NCBI GenBank assembly: GCA_003513005.1
Contig: DOTD01000032.1
Span: 4,847 to 68,846, forward strand
Reading direction: 5' to 3'
Source: Desulfotomaculum sp.
GTDB lineage: Bacteria > Bacillota > Desulfotomaculia > Desulfotomaculales > Nap2-2B
DNA: 64,000 nt
Numbering within the stretch: the stretch's first letter is position 1; each line of letters starts with the position of its first letter. The translations under genes were made by a program, and so were the position numbers. The notes under the pieces are model-generated. The model was not told where the DNA came from. It worked only from the letters and a program-made list of their open reading frames with translations, and did no database searches. Positions 37,913-46,887 of the stretch are shown one piece after another.

Positions 37913-38114
37913 TTGCAGTTTTAAAAATTTAAGTTTGAGATATAAAACTGGGCAGCAGTCTCTTTAGAAGGTTAAATGTACCATAAAAAGGAGGATGGGC
38001 AGTTTGGCGGTTGAGGAAGACACTTTGCGTGAAACGTGTTGAGGCCCTGATCCGCAGGAGGAGTTTCCTCCTCTTCCACCCGACACAGAGTGGATCACCG
38101 GATATAAGACTACT

Positions 38115-39095
38115 TTGGCAGGAAAAATCCCGGTTATCTCAACAAAACTTTCCGCAAAGGACATTATGGGTTCCTGGAAAGTACGCTGGGGTATAAACAG
38201 GTTGAACTATAAAGTTCCCCCCGGTCTATACGGGATTGGTGATCCTGTTGAAGATTCCCCGGTACTGGTAACGGCCAATTACAAAATGACTTTTGACCGT
38301 TTGAGAAAAGAGTTATCAGGAGTCAACGCCTGGGTGCTGGTCATCAATACGAGGGGCATCAACGTCTGGTGTTCCGCCGGAAAGGGAACTTTCAGCGCGA
38401 CAGAGATAGCCAGGATGATTGCCATGACTAACCTTTCCTGGATTGTCTCACACCGGACGCTGATTCTGCCGCAGCTAAGCGCTGTAGGAGTGGCTGCCCA
38501 CAGATTGTTAAAAATGTCCGGTTTCAGGGTCGTCTACGGCCCGGTAAGAGCCTGCGATATCCCCGATTTTCTTGGAGCGGGCATGAAAGCTTCTCCTCAA
38601 ATGCGCAGGGTCAACTTTGGTTTTGCAGACAGGCTTGTGCTTATCCCCATGGAACTGTCCAGGATTATCATACCTGTGGTTGCCGTTTACCTTATCATAT
38701 TCATTATAAACCTTCTTAAAATCTGGTCCGTTTCTTTTTTAGCAACACTGCCTTACTTCGGAGCGATTATTACGGGATGCGTATTGACGCCTGCCCTGCT
38801 GCCCTGGATACCGGGCCGCTCTTTTGCCTGGAAGGGGTGGCTGCTTGGGCTGCTCTGGTCCATAGCCGTTGTTTTATACTCTTTTCCGGCCATGCCCTAC
38901 GCCTGGAATAGGACTCTGGTTTATCTTTTTATTTTACCGGCCCTGTCATCTTACCTGGCGGTCAATTTTACCGGCGCAAGCACTTTTACTTCTTTGTCAG
39001 GCGTTCAGCGGGAATTAAGAGTTGCGCTCCCCGCAGCGATATTTTCAGCAGGACTGGGAGTTGTCCTGCTGGTTTTAAATCAGTTTGTTCTGTAA
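38115..39095 (+). CDS. hgcA: mercury methylation corrinoid protein HgcA
   Basis: 326 aa as tracked. Cap-helix motif GINVWCSAGKGTF (literature consensus N(V/I)WC(A/S)(A/G)GK), SPVLVTANYK, and a C-terminal domain of 4-5 TM helices. Followed by hgcB. The N-terminus is uncertain (see finding on UGA 38040). Confidence 0.85.
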   Translation: MAGKIPVISTKLSAKDIMGSWKVRWGINRLNYKVPPGLYGIGDPVEDSPVLVTANYKMTFDRLRKELSGVNAWVLVINTRGINVWCSAGKGTFSATEIARMIAMTNLSWIVSHRTLILPQLSAVGVAAHRLLKMSGFRVVYGPVRACDIPDFLGAGMKASPQMRRVNFGFADRLVLIPMELSRIIIPVVAVYLIIFIINLLKIWSVSFLATLPYFGAIITGCVLTPALLPWIPGRSFAWKGWLLGLLWSIAVVLYSFPAMPYAWNRTLVYLFILPALSSYLAVNFTGASTFTSLSGVQRELRVALPAAIFSAGLGVVLLVLNQFVL

Positions 39096-39108
39096 AGAGG
39101 TGACTTCT

Positions 39109-39369
39109 TTGAAGTATTTAAAAAATGTGGTTACGTTGGCGCTTGACAAAGAGAAATGCACCGGATGCGGGATCTGCACTAAGGTTTGCCCGCACCAGGT
39201 ATTTAGTATTGTTAGCGGAAAGGCAGCCATTCGGGATAGGGACTCCTGCATGGAGTGTGGCGCCTGTGCGATGAACTGCCCTTTTTGCGCCATTTCGGTA
39301 GCGGCCGGGGTGGGCTGCGCCTACGCGGTAATTAAAGGTAAATTCGGTAAGGGTGAGGTTTGCTGCTAG
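39109..39369 (+). CDS. hgcB: mercury methylation ferredoxin HgcB
   Basis: Two 4Fe-4S motifs (CTGCGICTKVCP, CMECGACAMNCP) and a C-terminal vicinal CC (GEVCC). TTG 39109 is served by AAGAGGTGA. The track ORF starts at 39085, inside the hgcA 3' end. Confidence 0.85.
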   Translation: MKYLKNVVTLALDKEKCTGCGICTKVCPHQVFSIVSGKAAIRDRDSCMECGACAMNCPFCAISVAAGVGCAYAVIKGKFGKGEVCC

Positions 39370-39418
39370 TTTTATTAAACAGGGGGCAAAACATGTTGGA
39401 TAAAAGGGGAATCTAAAA

Positions 39419-40027
39419 ATGAAATATTTGTTAATATCAGCATTGTGGATAGGATACTGTTCACTTCATAGTTATTTAATCAGCATCAGATTTACTAATC
39501 TTATGACCCGTTTATTGAAAAACTATTACGCTTTTTATAGACTGTTTTTCATATTGATTTCATGTTTTTTGCTTATTTTATTAATTAATTTCACTACGCA
39601 ATTGGATAATGAAGTAATTATATTTTATGCAGGGCCTTTAAATGTTGTCCGCCAGATACTCGCATATACTTCTCTGACAATGTTCTTTTGGGCTTTCTTC
39701 TTTAACTATGATTCTTTATCGTTTTTTGGAATTAGGCAAATATTAAACGCTATGAAAAGAAATAAAATGAATTCTAAAAATGAGGTTAAAAAAAGAGGGC
39801 TGTTGGGTATAGTGAGGCACCCGATGTATTTAGCGTTAATAATATTTTTGTGGTGTGAAACCTTCAGTATGGCTGATATTATTGTATATACAATATTGAC
39901 TGTATATATTATTATAGGAACAATACTCGAGGAAAAGAAACTCGTTTTAGAATTTGGCAATGCTTACGTCGAATATCAAAAAGAAGTTCCGATGTTGATT
40001 CCTTTTGCTATAAGAAAAGTTAAGTAG
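39419..40027 (+). CDS. ICMT/PEMT-like membrane methyltransferase family protein
   Basis: 202 aa polytopic. C-terminal pattern GIVRHPMYLALIIFLW...LEEKKLVLEFGNAYVEYQKEVPMLIPF is typical of isoprenylcysteine carboxyl methyltransferase-like proteins. Very AT-rich. Confidence 0.65.
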   Translation: MKYLLISALWIGYCSLHSYLISIRFTNLMTRLLKNYYAFYRLFFILISCFLLILLINFTTQLDNEVIIFYAGPLNVVRQILAYTSLTMFFWAFFFNYDSLSFFGIRQILNAMKRNKMNSKNEVKKRGLLGIVRHPMYLALIIFLWCETFSMADIIVYTILTVYIIIGTILEEKKLVLEFGNAYVEYQKEVPMLIPFAIRKVK

Positions 40028-40110
40028 TAACGACCAATCCAATCATAACAGGCCTACAATTAACGGGCTGATTACAGCGGCAATTGTCTTCCCCGACTTT
40101 TCACTGGAGG

Positions 40111-45034: not shown

Positions 45035-45700
45035 TTGAATAATAAAGAAGAAATAAGAGACATAATTAGAAAAAATTATTCCGAGGTTGCTTTAAAAGGT
45101 TCTGCAGGGGAGTGCTGCAGCGGAGGCTGCAGTTGCAGTGGTCCGCAGATGGATATCGTGGATATTGCCATTAAAATTGGTTATTCTGAAAGCGACTTTG
45201 AAGATGTTCCGATTGAAGCCAATATGGGGTTGGGCTGCGGAAACCCGATTGCTATTGCACCACTTAAAGAAGGGGAAGTGGTACTTGACCTTGGCAGTGG
45301 CGGCGGATTTGATTGTTTTTTGGCAAGAAAGCAGGTCGGTGAAACCGGGTTTGTTATTGGAGTGGATATGACACCGGAAATGATAAATCTATCTTTGGAT
45401 AAGCAGCAAGTTTTTAATGAAATGTACAGAATACTTAAAACCGGAGGGAGGATATCTATATCTGATATTGTTGCTACAGCGGAATTACCGGAGCATATAA
45501 AGAACAGCCCTGCCAGTATCTGTAGCTGCGTGGCTGGCGCTGAGCATGTTGAAAATATAAAAACTATGCTTCAGAATGCTGGTTTTACAAACATCCACTT
45601 GATTCCAAAAGATAACAGCAAAGAAATAATAAAAAGTTGGGTCCCCGGCATGGAAGAGTTTATTGCCTCTTTTATAATTGAAGCAAAAAAAGGGTCGTGA
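45035..45700 (+). CDS. arsM: arsenite S-adenosylmethionine methyltransferase, internally deleted variant
   Basis: 221 aa. N-terminal Cys cluster (GECCSGGCSCSG), GLGCGNP, SAM motif I VLDLGSGGGFD, C-terminal ICSCVAGAE. The segment between ...VDMTPEM and INLS... is missing compared with ArsM as I remember it. Confidence 0.75.
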   Translation: MNNKEEIRDIIRKNYSEVALKGSAGECCSGGCSCSGPQMDIVDIAIKIGYSESDFEDVPIEANMGLGCGNPIAIAPLKEGEVVLDLGSGGGFDCFLARKQVGETGFVIGVDMTPEMINLSLDKQQVFNEMYRILKTGGRISISDIVATAELPEHIKNSPASICSCVAGAEHVENIKTMLQNAGFTNIHLIPKDNSKEIIKSWVPGMEEFIASFIIEAKKGS

Positions 45701-45801
45701 AAAAAAGATACATTTTTAAGGGACAACAAGTTTATCAAGCGGCGTTCAAGTTTGGATATGGCAAGTAAATTAAAACACAATTTAAAGGAGGTTGAAGGAA
45801 A

Positions 45802-46137
45802 GTGAAAGAAGTCACTGTCACCGTATTCGGAACTGATGCTTTTATGCCGGCATCCAGCTGCTGAGGTCCGTCCACCGGAGACGCATGTTGCGGCTCTGCG
45901 AAGACCATGCAGGAAGAAGCTGAAGCTTTAAATAAATCGCTTGTACAGAGTTTTGGCGAAGCAATCCGCTATGCCTATGTTGATGTGCTAAGCAGCGAGA
46001 TGAATAATTACCCGGAGATTGCGCAAATCCTGAATCGAGTCAGACTACCCCTGATTGTTCTTAACGGTCAACCCCGCTTCCACGGTGGGATTTCAAAAGA
46101 AGTGATCGCAGATGCAGTGGGTGATCTTGCAAAATGA
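45802..46137 (+). CDS. thioredoxin-fold ArsD/YuzD-like protein containing an in-frame TGA (45862-45864)
   Basis: GTG 45802 (SD AAGGAGG 10 nt upstream) is in frame with track ORF 45907-46137. Reads MKEVTVTVFGTDAFMPASSC-[TGA]-GPSTGDACCGSAKTMQEEAEAL...LPLIVLNGQPRFHGG. Confidence 0.55.
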
Positions 46138-46206
46138 TACCTATATGCCGATTATTGGGCATAGCTGCACAAGTGCATATTTTAAAAAAAGGGGTGTTAA
46201 TCAGAT

Positions 46207-46494
46207 ATGAGCGGTAGTGATCCTAAAGCGTCAAAAATATATAAGATAGACGTTGGCGGAGATATGATAGGATTGTCTGGAGTAGAGCAGGCTTTCCTTG
46301 AGGTAATGAAACTTGGTTTAAAGGGCGATCAGGCTGCTGAAAAAATATTGGAAATAGTTGAGAGAACAAACTTTATTCCTGAAGGTTCGGAAAGGCAATA
46401 CAAGTGGGCTCTATCTTTGGCATACAGAAACTATTTAGCTGATCCATCAACAGGAAAAAAGGCTATGGAATTTGATCAGAAACCAGCATGTTGA
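46207..46494 (+). CDS. hypothetical protein ending ...KPAC-TGA
   Basis: 95 aa, coding-like, family not recognised. Last gene of the padR-arsM string. Confidence 0.45.
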   Translation: MSGSDPKASKIYKIDVGGDMIGLSGVEQAFLEVMKLGLKGDQAAEKILEIVERTNFIPEGSERQYKWALSLAYRNYLADPSTGKKAMEFDQKPAC

Positions 46495-46608
46495 GACACC
46501 TGATAATATATCTCTTCTGTTTTGGTAAAACAGAATTAATTTATTAAAAGTAAACTCCTGCGTAAATGAACTGCCTTTAGAAAATTGGTACATCAAAAGA
46601 AAAACACA

Positions 46609-46887
46609 TTAGCATTTACTCCATCTGTGGTACGGGTGCATGGATTCATACTCCCTGGTTGTTTGTTTGGTTATCTTATGCCAGGGAATGCCGATTTTTG
46701 CCCCTACAAGAGAAGCCAGGGCGCACCGTCAGAGTATGGGGTCAACTTCCGCCAGCAGTCTGTCAAAGACATCATACGGGTCGCAGGCAAGGAAATCATC
46801 TTTTGTGCCAATGCCTATTCTTTCAAGTTTGCCGGCGATTACTTTGCCGATATTGGGCAGTTCAAGAAGGCTGCTTTTATTTTTCAT
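46609..46887 (-). pseudogene. TfoX C-terminal-domain-like ORF with in-frame TGA (46729-46731)
   Basis: ATG 46887 (SD GGAGG). Reads MKNKSSLLELPNIGKVIAGKLERIGIGTKDDFLACDPYDVFDRLLAEVDPIL-[TGA]-RCALASLVGAKIGIPWHKITKQ... to TAA 46609. The LPNIG...GI.T helix-hairpin-helix pattern is TfoX_C-like. Confidence 0.45.

What the first reader, a model, noticed from the sequence alone, without database searches (positions are those of the whole stretch)
37987..46887. Hg/As island in which four to five genes carry an in-frame UGA beside a metal-binding cysteine: candidate selenocysteine-based metal(loid) handling
Within about 9 kb, four reading frames are interrupted by exactly one TGA and continue in the same frame. 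(1) The hgcA N-terminal extension reads ...RETC-[UGA 38040]-GPDP. (2) The ArsP-like permease reads TPF-[UGA 42378-80]-SCSAVP, where the family has TPFCSCS. (3) The ArsD/YuzD-like thioredoxin-fold ORF reads ASSC-[UGA 45862]-GPSTGDACC. (4) The TfoX_C-like ORF reads DPIL-[UGA 46729-31]-RCAL. A fifth ORF ends ...KPAC-[UGA 46492]-DT-UGA. In three of these cases the UGA directly follows Cys (C-U), and in the permease it replaces a known functional Cys. In (1), (2) and (3) a small hairpin places its loop 21-24 nt after the UGA, which is the distance window used for bacterial SECIS prediction. TGA is otherwise an ordinary stop here (for example leuC and the second ilvB). I know of no reported Cys-Sec pairs in Hg/As-binding sites of HgcA, ArsP or ArsD-like proteins, and selenolates bind Hg(II)/As(III) more tightly than thiolates. 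The caveat is that Cys codons are one step from TGA and this window contains genuine nonsense pseudogenes, so decay is a real alternative.
Basis: partly seen in the sequence, partly recalled or inferred. Interest (0 to 1): 0.9.

Follow-up and report, generated by a model that had tools for sequence, protein, structure and literature searches.

The report
Selenocysteine codons in Hg/As island
Most of the in-frame UGA "stops" in this mercury/arsenic gene island of a Desulfotomaculum-like bacterium encode selenocysteine at metal-binding cysteine positions; two cases were already published, two appear to be undescribed selenoprotein families, and one is unresolved.

Summary
Four are best read as selenocysteine (Sec) codons, not decay.

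- **hgcA (T-C-U-G-P).** This is the published HgcA N-terminal CU selenoprotein form (Haft & Gwadz 2022/2023). Four relatives at 80-86% identity keep the TGA.
- **ArsP-family permease (TPF-U-SCS).** Five lineages carry the TGA at the Cys of the CSC motif. dN/dS is 0.05-0.13 on both sides of it. The USC variant is already known in the sister SO_0444 family.
- **Thioredoxin-fold protein (S-C-U-G-P...ACCG).** This small family has five full-length Cys forms and at least seven TGA loci checked at the same column. It has no Pfam or NCBIfam model. Its nearest fold is YuzD (1XG8).
- **95-aa ORF.** Seven lineages all end X-UGA-GAC-ACM-UGA followed by one hairpin. In six of them, 0 of 25 hairpin bases vary, against 46 of 95 third codon positions. 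It also has no family model. Relatives carry an N-terminal CC instead.
- **TfoX_C-like ORF.** The TGA replaces an invariant Cys (80 of 80 relatives), but only in this lineage, so it stays unresolved.

Real decay in these islands occurs by deletion and frameshift. Sec machinery could not be checked in this genome.

Verdict: real, largely known in kind, with two probable new selenoprotein families.

The parts
37631..37912 (+). ArsR/SmtB-family regulator upstream of hgcA, with a 'KKCCEDKWLCVCH' Cys cluster
   Evidence: NCBIfam NF033788 scores 68.9 bits against a cut-off of 55. Pfam HTH_5 also matches.
38004..39095 (+). hgcA read through UGA. Start is TTG 38004 (or ATG 37995) behind SD AAGGAGG 37988-37994. 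The N-terminal extension reads MAVEEDTLRETC-U-GPDP...
   Evidence: NF040863 HgcA scores 443 bits against a cut-off of 275, and the profile begins only at residue 45, after the UGA. Relatives L019-L022 keep RETC-TGA-G[PS]D. The 12 codons upstream of the UGA show 3 synonymous versus 0-2 non-synonymous changes.
38040..38042 (+). UGA read as Sec in hgcA (motif T-C-U-G-P)
   Evidence: The published motif is PCUGP.
38056..38075 (+). SECIS-like hairpin: 8-bp stem AGGAGGAG/CUCCUCUU with loop UUUC at nt 25-28 from the U of UGA
   Evidence: Fold. Pair 21:32 is G:C in the window, G:U in L019 and L020, and A:U in L022, which is a compensatory change.
39085..39369 (+). hgcB ferredoxin. It ends in CC and has Cys (GVGC) at the position that is Sec in a few HgcB proteins
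   Evidence: NF040864 scores 113 bits against a cut-off of 99. Sequence. The GVGU site is described.
39419..40027 (+). Membrane methyltransferase, distantly MddA-like (methanethiol S-methyltransferase)
   Evidence: NF045656 scores 77 bits, below its cut-off of 270. The source names it protein-S-isoprenylcysteine methyltransferase.
40111..41489 (-). DsbD-like membrane thiol-disulfide transporter (40111-40767) and a thioredoxin-like lipoprotein with 'SAGCCEA' (40767-41489)
   Evidence: Pfam DsbD_TM E-value 1.6e-16; Thioredoxin_2 match is weak. The pair also follows the ArsP genes in loci L001-L006.
41670..42632 (-). ArsP-family permease read through UGA (320 aa, TPF-U-SCS)
   Evidence: Pfam ArsP_1 scores 260.7 bits. 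The frame is intact with a single TGA in W, L001-L012 and L017. dN/dS between W and L002 is 0.045 upstream and 0.125 downstream of the TGA.
42378..42380 (-). UGA read as Sec, replacing the first Cys of the conserved CSC motif
   Evidence: Cys forms read TPFCSCS in L013 4832-5836 and L017 7466-8386. A divergent paralog with TPF-TGA-SCS occurs in L013, L099 and L100.
42324..42368 (-). Two hairpins after the UGA. The first is GCCGAU-AUUU-AUCGGC with its loop at nt 24-27. The second is AAGCGGG-GGU-CCCGCUU with its loop at nt 48-50
   Evidence: Folds. The first 57 nt after the TGA are identical between W and L002 although downstream dS is 0.47.
42643..42888 (-). MTH895/ArsE-family small thioredoxin (CxxC)
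   Evidence: TIGR00412 scores 94.7 bits against a cut-off of 62.
42946..44402 (-). ACR3 arsenite efflux transporter (42946-44031) and ArsR regulator (43998-44402)
   Evidence: TIGR00832 scores 443 bits against a cut-off of 283. NF033788 matches the regulator.
44630..45700 (+). PadR regulator (44630-44989, with 'GCCAP') and arsM carrying a 141-bp in-frame deletion (45035-45700), probably inactive
   Evidence: The deletion lies between direct repeats and removes ...VVISNCV.
45802..46137 (+). Thioredoxin-fold protein read through UGA (111 aa). The loop between beta1 and alpha1 carries C-U...CC
   Evidence: Five full-length Cys homologs and many 76-aa truncated forms were found. A TGA at the same column was checked in L013/L014, L015/L016, L017/L018, L001/L002, L099 and L101. 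The AF2 model of Cys homolog P0021 has pLDDT 82 and its best PDB hit is 1xg8.
45862..45864 (+). UGA read as Sec (S-C-U-G-P)
   Evidence: Cys occupies this column in P0021, P0022, P0029, P0030 and P0036.
45876..45898 (+). SECIS-like hairpin: CGGAG.CGCA-UGU-UGCG.CUCUG, with its loop at nt 25-27
   Evidence: The core GCA-TGT-TGC-GG is kept with the same codons in most TGA lineages examined; L001/L002 read ACA at the first of these codons.
46207..46503 (+). ORF5 read through UGA 46492-46494 to the real stop UGA 46501-46503, giving the C-terminal tail ...KPA-C-U-D-T
   Evidence: Seven lineages end [C/Y/A]-TGA-GAC-ACM-TGA-TAR. dN/dS is 0.18-0.33. No Pfam or NCBIfam model matches.
46515..46535 (+). 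Hairpin UUCUGUUUU-GGU-AAAACAGAA, lying 20 nt after the UGA in the 3' untranslated region. It is a candidate SECIS
   Evidence: In six lineages 0 of 25 positions vary, against 46 of 95 third codon positions. The terminator scan does not call it.
46609..46887 (-). TfoX_C/Cdd1-like ORF with UGA at 46729-46731 (DPIL-U-RC). Sec versus nonsense mutation is unresolved
   Evidence: Pfam TfoX_C scores 32.7 bits against a cut-off of 23.1 and spans the TGA. Cys occupies that column in 11 database homologs and 80 of 80 metagenome loci. The TGA occurs only in W and L007-L012. dN/dS is 0.19 upstream and 0.36 downstream.

Best explanation
The window comes from the MAG 'Desulfotomaculum sp. 46_80'. Positions 37.6-46.9 kb hold a mercury-methylation and arsenic-resistance island. 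In at least four of its genes UGA is decoded as selenocysteine by the ordinary bacterial SelB/SECIS route. Each time, the Sec sits in a soft-metal(loid) binding site that is a cysteine in other members of the family.

1. HgcA carries a flexible N-terminal arm with a Cys-Sec pair (T-C-U-G-P). This is the published selenoprotein form. The arm is inferred to capture Hg(II) and present it to the methyl-corrinoid.
2. The ArsP-family permease has U-S-C instead of C-S-C in its translocation path.
3. A small thioredoxin-fold protein (YuzD-like fold, ArsD-like layout) has C-U...C-C in the loop where thioredoxins have CxxC. It is inferred to be a metallochaperone or redox partner.
4. A small protein with a beta-hairpin and four helices carries C-U-D-T on a disordered C-terminal tail. 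Its relatives carry CC on the N-terminal tail and are often fused to ArsE-type thioredoxins. It is inferred to be a swinging-arm ligand or redox partner.

What is shown: the UGAs, their conservation, Cys/Sec column pairing, purifying selection on both sides of the UGA, and conserved downstream hairpins. What is inferred: actual Sec insertion in this organism, and the metal-handling roles.

The TfoX_C-like UGA may be a fifth, lineage-specific Sec or a recent nonsense mutation.
For: Organism and independent assemblies.

HgcA.
- The NCBIfam HgcA profile starts after the UGA, and the strong SD lies before it.
- L019-L022 (80-86% identity) keep RETC-TGA-G[PS].
- The peptide upstream of the UGA is conserved through synonymous changes.
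- The hairpin pair 21:32 shows a compensatory change.
- Haft & Gwadz describe exactly this extension.

ArsP.
- A single TGA sits at the same codon in W, group A (Firmicutes UBA4049), group B and Pelotomaculum terephthalicicum JT. In JT the record's gene call spans it (319 aa). A divergent paralog in L013, L099 and L100 has it too.
- Cys forms read TPFCSCS.
- dN/dS is 0.045-0.125 with dS 0.47-0.94.

Thioredoxin-like ORF.
- Cys occupies the U column in five full-length homologs.
- The TGA is confirmed in the DNA at the other loci checked, all with a conserved N-terminal beta1 strand that the fold needs.

ORF5.
- The UGA-GAC-ACM-UGA tail and the hairpin are invariant while 48% of third positions vary.
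- Relatives have an N-terminal CC and are fused to Thioredoxin_3 domains.

Contrast.
- Genuine decay in these loci is by deletion or frameshift.
- The window's clear pseudogene (PiT, 57.8-59 kb) carries TAG codons plus a frameshift.
- TGA still terminates 14 of 40 genes.
Against: - No selA, selB, selC or selD was seen. The window has no tRNA gene and the rest of the genome could not be searched.
- No SECIS model matches in Rfam.
- Fold z-scores are modest: -1.8, -2.1, -0.35 and -1.45.
- The ORF5 hairpin lies about 9 nt further from the UGA than the others, and no Cys-form homolog of its tail was found. For that gene the usual Cys/Sec pair test is therefore missing.
- The island is visibly decaying. 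arsM is deleted in the window. The thioredoxin-like gene and ACR3 are deleted in group B. arsM is frameshifted in group A.
- No protein-level data exist.
Confidence: 0.85

Rival explanations
1. Nonsense decay. The TGAs are one-step mutations of Cys codons in a degenerating island, and the genes are pseudogenes.
For: The island does decay: arsM carries a 141-bp deletion in the window, arsM is frameshifted in group A, and ACR3 and the thioredoxin-like gene are deleted in group B.

For the TfoX_C-like ORF this reading remains plausible.
- The TGA is seen only in the W+B lineage, while 80 of 80 other relatives have TGC or TGT.
- Downstream dN is twice the upstream value, at 0.119 against 0.06.
- B has lost the invariant C-terminal Cys.
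Against: For hgcA, ArsP, the thioredoxin-like ORF and ORF5 the same TGA is kept across lineages with dS of 0.3-0.9. There is no second lesion, and purifying selection acts on both sides. Independent paralogs and distant lineages share the TGA column. A pseudogene would not keep 57 identical nucleotides after the stop.
Confidence: 0.04
2. The UGAs are true stops, and the downstream parts are expressed separately. This would mean a split permease, an upstream leader peptide before hgcA, and a 76-aa thioredoxin fragment starting at Met36.
For: Gene callers produce exactly these fragments in all databases. A GTG lies 4 codons after the ArsP TGA. An ATG follows the thioredoxin-like TGA.
Against: - Uninterrupted homologs have Cys at the column and one continuous fold. 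Beta1 of the thioredoxin fold lies before the UGA. The ArsP_1 and TfoX_C profiles run across the TGA.
- The strong SD of hgcA precedes the UGA and none precedes codon 41.
- The region between the UGA and the next start codon is conserved as protein, as in ...GPSTGDACCGSAKT.
Confidence: 0.04
3. For ORF5 only: TGA 46492 is the genuine stop, and the conserved downstream hairpin is a terminator or other regulatory RNA, not a SECIS.
For: - No Cys-form homolog with an extended tail was found.
- The hairpin loop lies at nt 33-35, further out than in the other three genes.
- ORF5 is the last gene of its strand run, where a terminator is expected.
- The residue before the UGA is not always Cys; it is Y in L101 and A in L102.
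Against: - The two codons and second stop after the TGA (GAC-ACM-TGA) are invariant except at a synonymous third position.
- The spacer just behind them varies, and the hairpin is again invariant.
- The stem is AU-rich with only 2 G-C pairs, and the terminator scan does not call it.
- The first stop is TGA in all seven lineages, never TAA or TAG.
- Relatives carry a vicinal CC on the other terminus, which ORF5 has lost.
Confidence: 0.15
4. An alternative genetic code in which UGA is read as Trp or Gly.
For: None beyond the presence of in-frame TGAs.
Against: Of 40 supported genes, 14 end in TGA. The in-frame TGAs of hgcA, ArsP, the thioredoxin-like ORF and the TfoX_C-like ORF align to Cys, not to Trp or Gly; ORF5's has no residue aligned to it.
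Confidence: 0.01

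Closest known systems
HgcA selenoprotein form (NCBIfam NF040863; Haft & Gwadz, J Bacteriol 2023 / bioRxiv 10.1101/2022.07.06.499078)
   Same: An in-frame UGA lies N-terminal to the previously annotated start. A Cys-Sec dipeptide is followed by Gly-Pro. hgcB is adjacent and ends in CC. A hairpin lies about 20 nt downstream of the UGA.
   Different: The paper reports PCUGP as invariant in 20 proteins. Here, and in L019-L021, the motif is TCUGP, and L022 has TCUGS. Deltaproteobacterial loci L081, L082 and L096 have SCUGG, SCUGR and SCUPS. 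The motif is therefore looser, roughly [PTS]-C-U-[GP]. Most of the 80 nearest, mostly Firmicute, HgcA loci use CC-rich extensions instead.
SO_0444-family Cu/Zn efflux transporter selenoproteins (NF033936) and ArsP organoarsenical efflux permeases (Pfam PF03773)
   Same: It belongs to the same superfamily (ArsP_1, 260 bits). Sec replaces the first Cys of the conserved C-S-C motif, giving U-S-C.
   Different: It scores far below the cut-offs of SO_0444 (106 against 300) and SaoE (127 against 325). It is therefore a different ArsP_1 subfamily, found next to ACR3, ArsR and ArsE-type thioredoxin genes in Desulfotomaculum and Pelotomaculum relatives. A second, divergent subfamily (L013, L099, L100) also has USC.
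ArsD arsenic metallochaperone, ArsD-related VcpD (NF047871), and YuzD/DUF1462 (PDB 1XG8)
   Same: It has a thioredoxin fold with a cluster of vicinal cysteines in the loop after beta1. It is located in ars operons. 1XG8 is the best structural match (Foldseek E-value 3.7e-4, TM 0.67-0.69).
   Different: - Sequence hits are sub-threshold only: VcpD E-value 1e-3 to 1e-2, DUF1462 E-value 2e-3 for one homolog.
- No ArsD hit appeared by sequence.
- No arsA partner is present.
- One ligand is Sec. No such Sec form appeared in the literature I could search.
C-terminal Sec-tail selenoproteins: SaoC (CC/CU-COOH), KCU-star (NF033934), UXX-star families (NF041114, NF041211); functionally, the GCUG tail of mammalian thioredoxin reductase
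   Same: Sec lies two to three residues from the C-terminus on a flexible tail, usually after Cys. The SECIS must then lie in the 3' untranslated region.
   Different: ORF5 matches none of these models, even at E-value 5, and it has a different fold. Its relatives place CC at the N-terminus and are fused to ArsE-type thioredoxin, DUF2703 or ferredoxin domains.

Membership tests
HgcA (mercury methylation corrinoid protein, NF040863) | Full-length match above the curated cut-off, including the cap-helix motif N(V/I)WC(A/S)(A/G)GK and the C-terminal membrane domain | tested here: met
   Scores 443 bits against a cut-off of 275, covering profile positions 1-324 of 325. 'INVWCSAGKG' is present.
HgcA (mercury methylation corrinoid protein, NF040863) | Adjacent hgcB ferredoxin ending in CC | tested here: met
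   NF040864 scores 113 bits against a cut-off of 99. The C-terminus reads ...GEVCC.
HgcA selenoprotein form (Haft & Gwadz) | A single in-frame UGA upstream of the old start, in the motif PCUGP | tested here: met
   The motif is TCUGP, matching 4 of 5 positions including C-U-G-P. The UGA is conserved in L019-L022.
Bacterial selenoprotein (general criteria) | UGA aligned to Cys in homologs (Cys/Sec pair) | tested here: met
   Met for hgcA (for example L034 ACCGPSP), ArsP, the thioredoxin-like ORF and TfoX_C. Not met for ORF5, where no Cys-tail homolog was found.
Bacterial selenoprotein (general criteria) | UGA conserved in other species, with coding constraint on both sides | tested here: met
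   ArsP. hgcA. Thioredoxin-like ORF. ORF5. For TfoX_C only one lineage has it and dN/dS is not decisive.
Bacterial selenoprotein (general criteria) | SECIS stem-loop shortly after the UGA | tested here: inconclusive
   Hairpins are present with loops at nt 24-28 in three genes, 33-35 in ORF5 and 18-24 in TfoX. They are conserved within ortholog groups, and one compensatory pair was seen. Fold z-scores are weak and no Rfam model matches.
Bacterial selenoprotein (general criteria) | selA, selB, selC and selD present in the same genome | not testable with these tools
   The window has no tRNA gene, and the rest of the MAG could not be queried. That relatives use Sec is inferred from the 319-aa gene call across the TGA in the P. 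terephthalicicum JT record.
SO_0444 family Cu/Zn efflux transporter (NF033936) / SaoE (NF040736) | Score above the curated equivalog cut-off | tested here: not met
   Scores 106 against 300, and 127 against 325. It is a member of Pfam ArsP_1 only.
ArsD metallochaperone | Sequence membership (ArsD or VcpD models) and an arsA partner | tested here: not met
   Only VcpD at E-value 0.016 to 0.0014, scoring 15-18 bits against a cut-off of 90. No ArsD appears in the PDB profile search. No arsA is in the island.
YuzD / DUF1462 thioredoxin-like | Pfam PF07315 match; fold similarity to 1XG8 | tested here: inconclusive
   PF07315 matches only homolog P0036 (E-value 0.0019, below cut-off). 1xg8 is the top Foldseek hit (E-value 3.7e-4, TM 0.67).
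TfoX_C / Cdd1 domain | Pfam match above the gathering score | tested here: met
   PF04994 scores 32.7 against 23.1 and PF11731 scores 29.2 against 25.5. Both run across the TGA.

The most novel reading that the evidence does not exclude
The YuzD/ArsD-like C-U...CC thioredoxin-fold protein and the C-U-D-T-tailed small protein are two previously undescribed selenoprotein families. Together with the U-S-C ArsP permease and an ArsE-type thioredoxin they form a conserved, selenium-dependent metalloid trafficking module in Desulfotomaculum, Pelotomaculum and Sporotomaculum relatives. In this module, selenol-bearing carriers hand As(III), methyl-As(III) or Hg(II) to a selenol-bearing exporter.
Probability: 0.35. 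Interest if true: 0.6.

Novelty: new member of a known kind. Interest (0 to 1): 0.45.

Why it matters
Annotation. Gene callers split or truncate all of these genes. GenBank lists an 84-aa 'Permease', two 'hypothetical proteins' of 76 and 95 aa, and hgcA is normally called from after the UGA. Surveys of Hg methylation and As resistance therefore miss the parts that probably bind the metal.

Biology. The finding extends the 2023 observation that selenium is built into organometallic and metalloid-handling proteins. One island holds a Sec-HgcA, a Sec-permease and two small Sec proteins, all at vicinal-thiol sites. This implies that selenium supply could limit Hg methylation and As export in these anaerobes.

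Two families without any Pfam or NCBIfam model could be added to selenoprotein catalogues.

Pelotomaculum terephthalicicum JT carries the Sec permease, two copies of the thioredoxin-fold gene and ORF5. From my own knowledge it is a cultured strain, which would make these predictions experimentally testable.

Tried and rejected
- Rfam at gathering and at E-value 10 gave no SECIS-type hit. Bacterial SECIS elements are poorly modelled, and Haft & Gwadz also report that prediction servers fail.
- Fold z-scores against shuffles were not significant for the thioredoxin-like ORF (-0.35) or TfoX (+0.44). I therefore relied on conservation instead.
- I tested whether the TfoX hairpin is specific to the TGA lineage. 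It is not. Cys-form homologs fold the same region equally well or better, so this does not discriminate.
- Foldseek and PDB profile searches for ORF5 gave no meaningful match.
I could not see what name NCBI gives the 319-aa P. terephthalicicum permease.
- Haft & Tolstoy 2025 (mSystems), the most likely place for prior description of the two small families, is not held. I used NCBIfam release 20 (June 2026) and the 2026 review table as proxies.
- A first six-frame scan for stop-interrupted frames was too noisy to be useful.
- Genetic-code reassignment was considered and rejected.

Full report
**Source and observation**

The window belongs to the metagenome-assembled genome 'Desulfotomaculum sp. 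46_80'. The same proteins also occur in two TPA re-assemblies.

All five in-frame TGAs are present as described, each in an otherwise open frame:
- hgcA: 38040-42
- ArsP-like, minus strand: 42378-80
- thioredoxin-like ORF: 45862-64
- ORF5: 46492-94
- TfoX_C-like, minus strand: 46729-31

TGA is still an ordinary stop. It ends 14 of 40 supported genes, so a changed genetic code is excluded.

**The island**

Family searches define the genes in order:
- ArsR
- hgcA (NF040863, 443 bits)
- hgcB (NF040864, 113 bits, ending in CC)
- an MddA-like membrane methyltransferase
- a DsbD-like protein and a thioredoxin-like lipoprotein, on the minus strand
- the ArsP_1 permease, an ArsE-type thioredoxin, ACR3 and ArsR, on the minus strand
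- PadR, arsM, the thioredoxin-like ORF and ORF5, on the plus strand
- the TfoX_C-like ORF, on the minus strand

Vicinal CC motifs recur throughout: HgcB, ArsM, PadR 'GCCAP', ArsR 'KCCEDK' and the lipoprotein 'GCCEA'.

**hgcA**

The HgcA profile begins at residue 45 of the read-through protein. The only strong Shine-Dalgarno sequence (AAGGAGG, 37988-94) precedes the UGA.

A scan of species-representative genomes returned 80 HgcA loci. The four closest, at 80-86% identity, are L019, L020, and L021 and L022 (both from Firmicutes bacterium UBA4049). All keep ...LRETC-TGA-G[PS]D....

The 12 codons before the UGA differ by 3 synonymous and 0-2 non-synonymous changes. They are therefore translated.

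The hairpin after the UGA has an 8-bp stem with its loop at nt 25-28. Pair 21:32 changes from G:C in the window to G:U in L019 and L020 and to A:U in L022.

Deltaproteobacterial loci L081, L082 and L096 have SSC-TGA with hairpin loops AGGU, AGGC and AGGG at the same distance. Many Firmicute HgcAs instead have CC-rich extensions, for example L034 'ACCGPSP'.

[quoted passage not shown] It is listed in the 2026 review. The window's TCUGP shows only that the first position is not invariant.

**ArsP-like permease**

The 84-aa N-terminal fragment has cluster mates at 90% identity or more that are all 84 aa long. Their contigs fall into two groups. Group A is L001-L006; L003 comes from Firmicutes UBA4049. 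Group B is L007-L012 and is syntenic with the window flanks but lacks hgcAB.

All have one TGA at the identical codon and no other lesion. Between the window and group A, dS is 0.94 upstream and 0.47 downstream of the TGA. dN/dS is 0.045 and 0.125. The first 57 nt after the TGA are identical, which points to an RNA-level constraint.

The ortholog in Pelotomaculum terephthalicicum JT (L017 637-1596) has the same TGA. The record calls it as one 319-aa product.

A divergent ArsP paralog has TPF-TGA-SCS in L013, L099 and L100. Its ortholog in L017 (7466-8386) and another paralog (L013 4832-5836) have TPFCSCS.

The U-S-C variant is recorded for the SO_0444 family. The window protein is below the cut-offs of SO_0444 and SaoE, so it represents a further ArsP_1 subfamily.

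**Thioredoxin-like ORF**

A database search gave five full-length homologs of 105-116 aa, including one from Sporotomaculum syntrophicum. It also gave more than a dozen forms of 65-78 aa that begin at Met36.

In the alignment the UGA column is Cys in all five full-length proteins. I fetched DNA for truncated forms. A TGA sits at the same column, preceded by a conserved start and the beta1 strand 'V[ST]VT[IV]FG[TS]NAP', in these loci:
- L013/L014: SSC-U-GP
- two paralogs of P. terephthalicicum: DSC-U-NP and GGC-U-DP
- group A: SG-U-GC
- L099: SNC-U-GS
- L101: SSC-U-GP

dN/dS downstream of the TGA is 0.19.

An AlphaFold model of the Cys homolog P0021 (pLDDT 82) is a thioredoxin fold. The Cys/Sec loop, residues 16-30, lies between beta1 and alpha1. 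The best PDB match is 1xg8, which I recognise as YuzD/DUF1462-like, followed by thioredoxins.

By sequence there are only sub-threshold hits: the ArsD-related VcpD model, DUF1462, and the MTH895 thioredoxin 1nho. The family has no Pfam or NCBIfam model. 'ArsD', 'DUF1462' and 'YuzD' do not occur in the selenoprotein review or the BSepDB paper.

The gene is deleted in group B, so it is dispensable there.

**ORF5**

Nearly all homologs are 95 aa and stop at the same place.

DNA from seven lineages at 67-94% protein identity shows [C/Y/A]-TGA-GAC-ACM-TGA-TAR. A short variable spacer follows, and then the identical hairpin CTCTTCTGTTTTGGTAAAACAGAAT.

Among six lineages 46 of 95 third codon positions vary. 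Against that, 0 of 25 hairpin positions vary. Only 1 of 12 positions of UGA-GAC-ACM-UGA varies, and that one is a synonymous site. The hairpin is not terminator-like.

The AlphaFold model (pLDDT 80) is a beta-hairpin plus four helices with disordered termini. It has no PDB match.

A profile search of 1.84 billion representatives found 104 relatives. Most of those inspected have an N-terminal 'CCDP' motif, which ORF5 lacks. Many are fused to MTH895/ArsE-type thioredoxins. One is fused to DUF2703 and one to an HgcB-like ferredoxin.

The domain has no Pfam or NCBIfam model. I read ORF5 as a 'UXX-star'-type selenoprotein of a new family. The probability is somewhat lower than for the others because no Cys-tail homolog exists.

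**TfoX_C-like ORF**

The Pfam domain runs across the TGA. Eleven database homologs and 80 of 80 metagenome loci have Cys there, in the motif L-C-R-C-A. Only the window and group B have TGA.

dN/dS is 0.19 upstream and 0.36 downstream, with 7 synonymous and 10 non-synonymous changes downstream. That is too few to decide. The first 36 nt after the TGA are identical between the two lineages. However, group B has lost the invariant C-terminal Cys.

The hairpin also exists in Cys forms. I leave this at roughly even odds between Sec and a nonsense mutation. The gene has no evident metal role.

**Decay as a contrast**
- arsM in the window has a 141-bp in-frame deletion between direct repeats that removes the conserved ...SNCV cysteine.
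- arsM is frameshifted in group A.
- ACR3 lacks about 600 bp in group B.
- The PiT transporter at 57.8-59 kb has two TAG codons and a frameshift.

Real decay here therefore looks different from the conserved TGAs aligned to Cys columns.

**Limits**

No Sec machinery could be examined. No SECIS model matched. No protein-level data exist.

**Verdict**

Two of these are already known in kind. Two small families appear undescribed in the resources available to me. Interest is moderate.

Noticed in passing
window 45035-45700 (deletion junction near 45385): arsM carries a 141-bp in-frame deletion between short direct repeats (ATGATMAAKCTATC). It removes 47 residues including the conserved ...VVISNCV cysteine. 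The ortholog in group B is intact (268 aa), and the one in group A is frameshifted.
   Followed up: yes
window 57800-58960: A PiT-family phosphate transporter gene is a genuine pseudogene. It has two in-frame TAG codons, at positions where homologs as I recall them (e.g. E. coli PitA) have Tyr and Trp, plus a frameshift.
   Followed up: partly
L007-L012 (group B) compared with window 37520-41676, 43446-44041 and 45719-46000: A close relative (about 91-94% nucleotide identity in the flanks) lacks the whole hgcAB-methyltransferase-DsbD-lipoprotein block. It also has a truncated ACR3 and has lost the N-terminal two-thirds of the thioredoxin-like selenoprotein gene. The island is therefore mosaic and unstable.
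   Followed up: partly
window 39419-40027: The membrane methyltransferase directly downstream of hgcB is distantly similar to the methanethiol S-methyltransferase MddA (77 bits, below cut-off). This is a possible thiol or selenol methylation function next to Hg methylation.
   Followed up: no
L099 3021-3242 (minus strand): A 73-aa gene matches the 'CC/Se motif family (seleno)protein' model (NF041239, 39 bits against a cut-off of 40). It appears to continue through an in-frame stop (...GLHF*RGCCWIGWD), next to a USC-type ArsP. The codon identity was not checked.
   Followed up: no
P0080, P0082, P0093, P0101 (160-172 aa); P0076; P0130: The unmodelled ORF5-like domain occurs fused to MTH895/ArsE-type thioredoxins, to DUF2703/'DF family (seleno)protein', and to an HgcB-like 2x[4Fe-4S] ferredoxin. 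It usually carries an N-terminal CCDP motif.
   Followed up: partly
window 26357-29654: An IS200-like (Y1_Tnp) transposase gene lies directly upstream of a heavy-metal P-type ATPase with an HMA domain (CPNC). This is a second metal-resistance locus in the window.
   Followed up: no
window 11338-13934: A fused Vsr endonuclease and C-5 cytosine DNA methylase (545 aa) is followed by a DUF4928 protein. This is probably a restriction-modification-type module.
   Followed up: no
window 25090-25710: The 917-aa papain-like protease/lectin/FN3 surface protein contains repeats with a 309-nt period. The same peptide string recurs at 25090, 25399 and 25708 on the opposite strand.
   Followed up: no
window 9135-9294: A glmS ribozyme (Rfam RF00234, 95 bits) lies upstream of glmS.
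   Followed up: no
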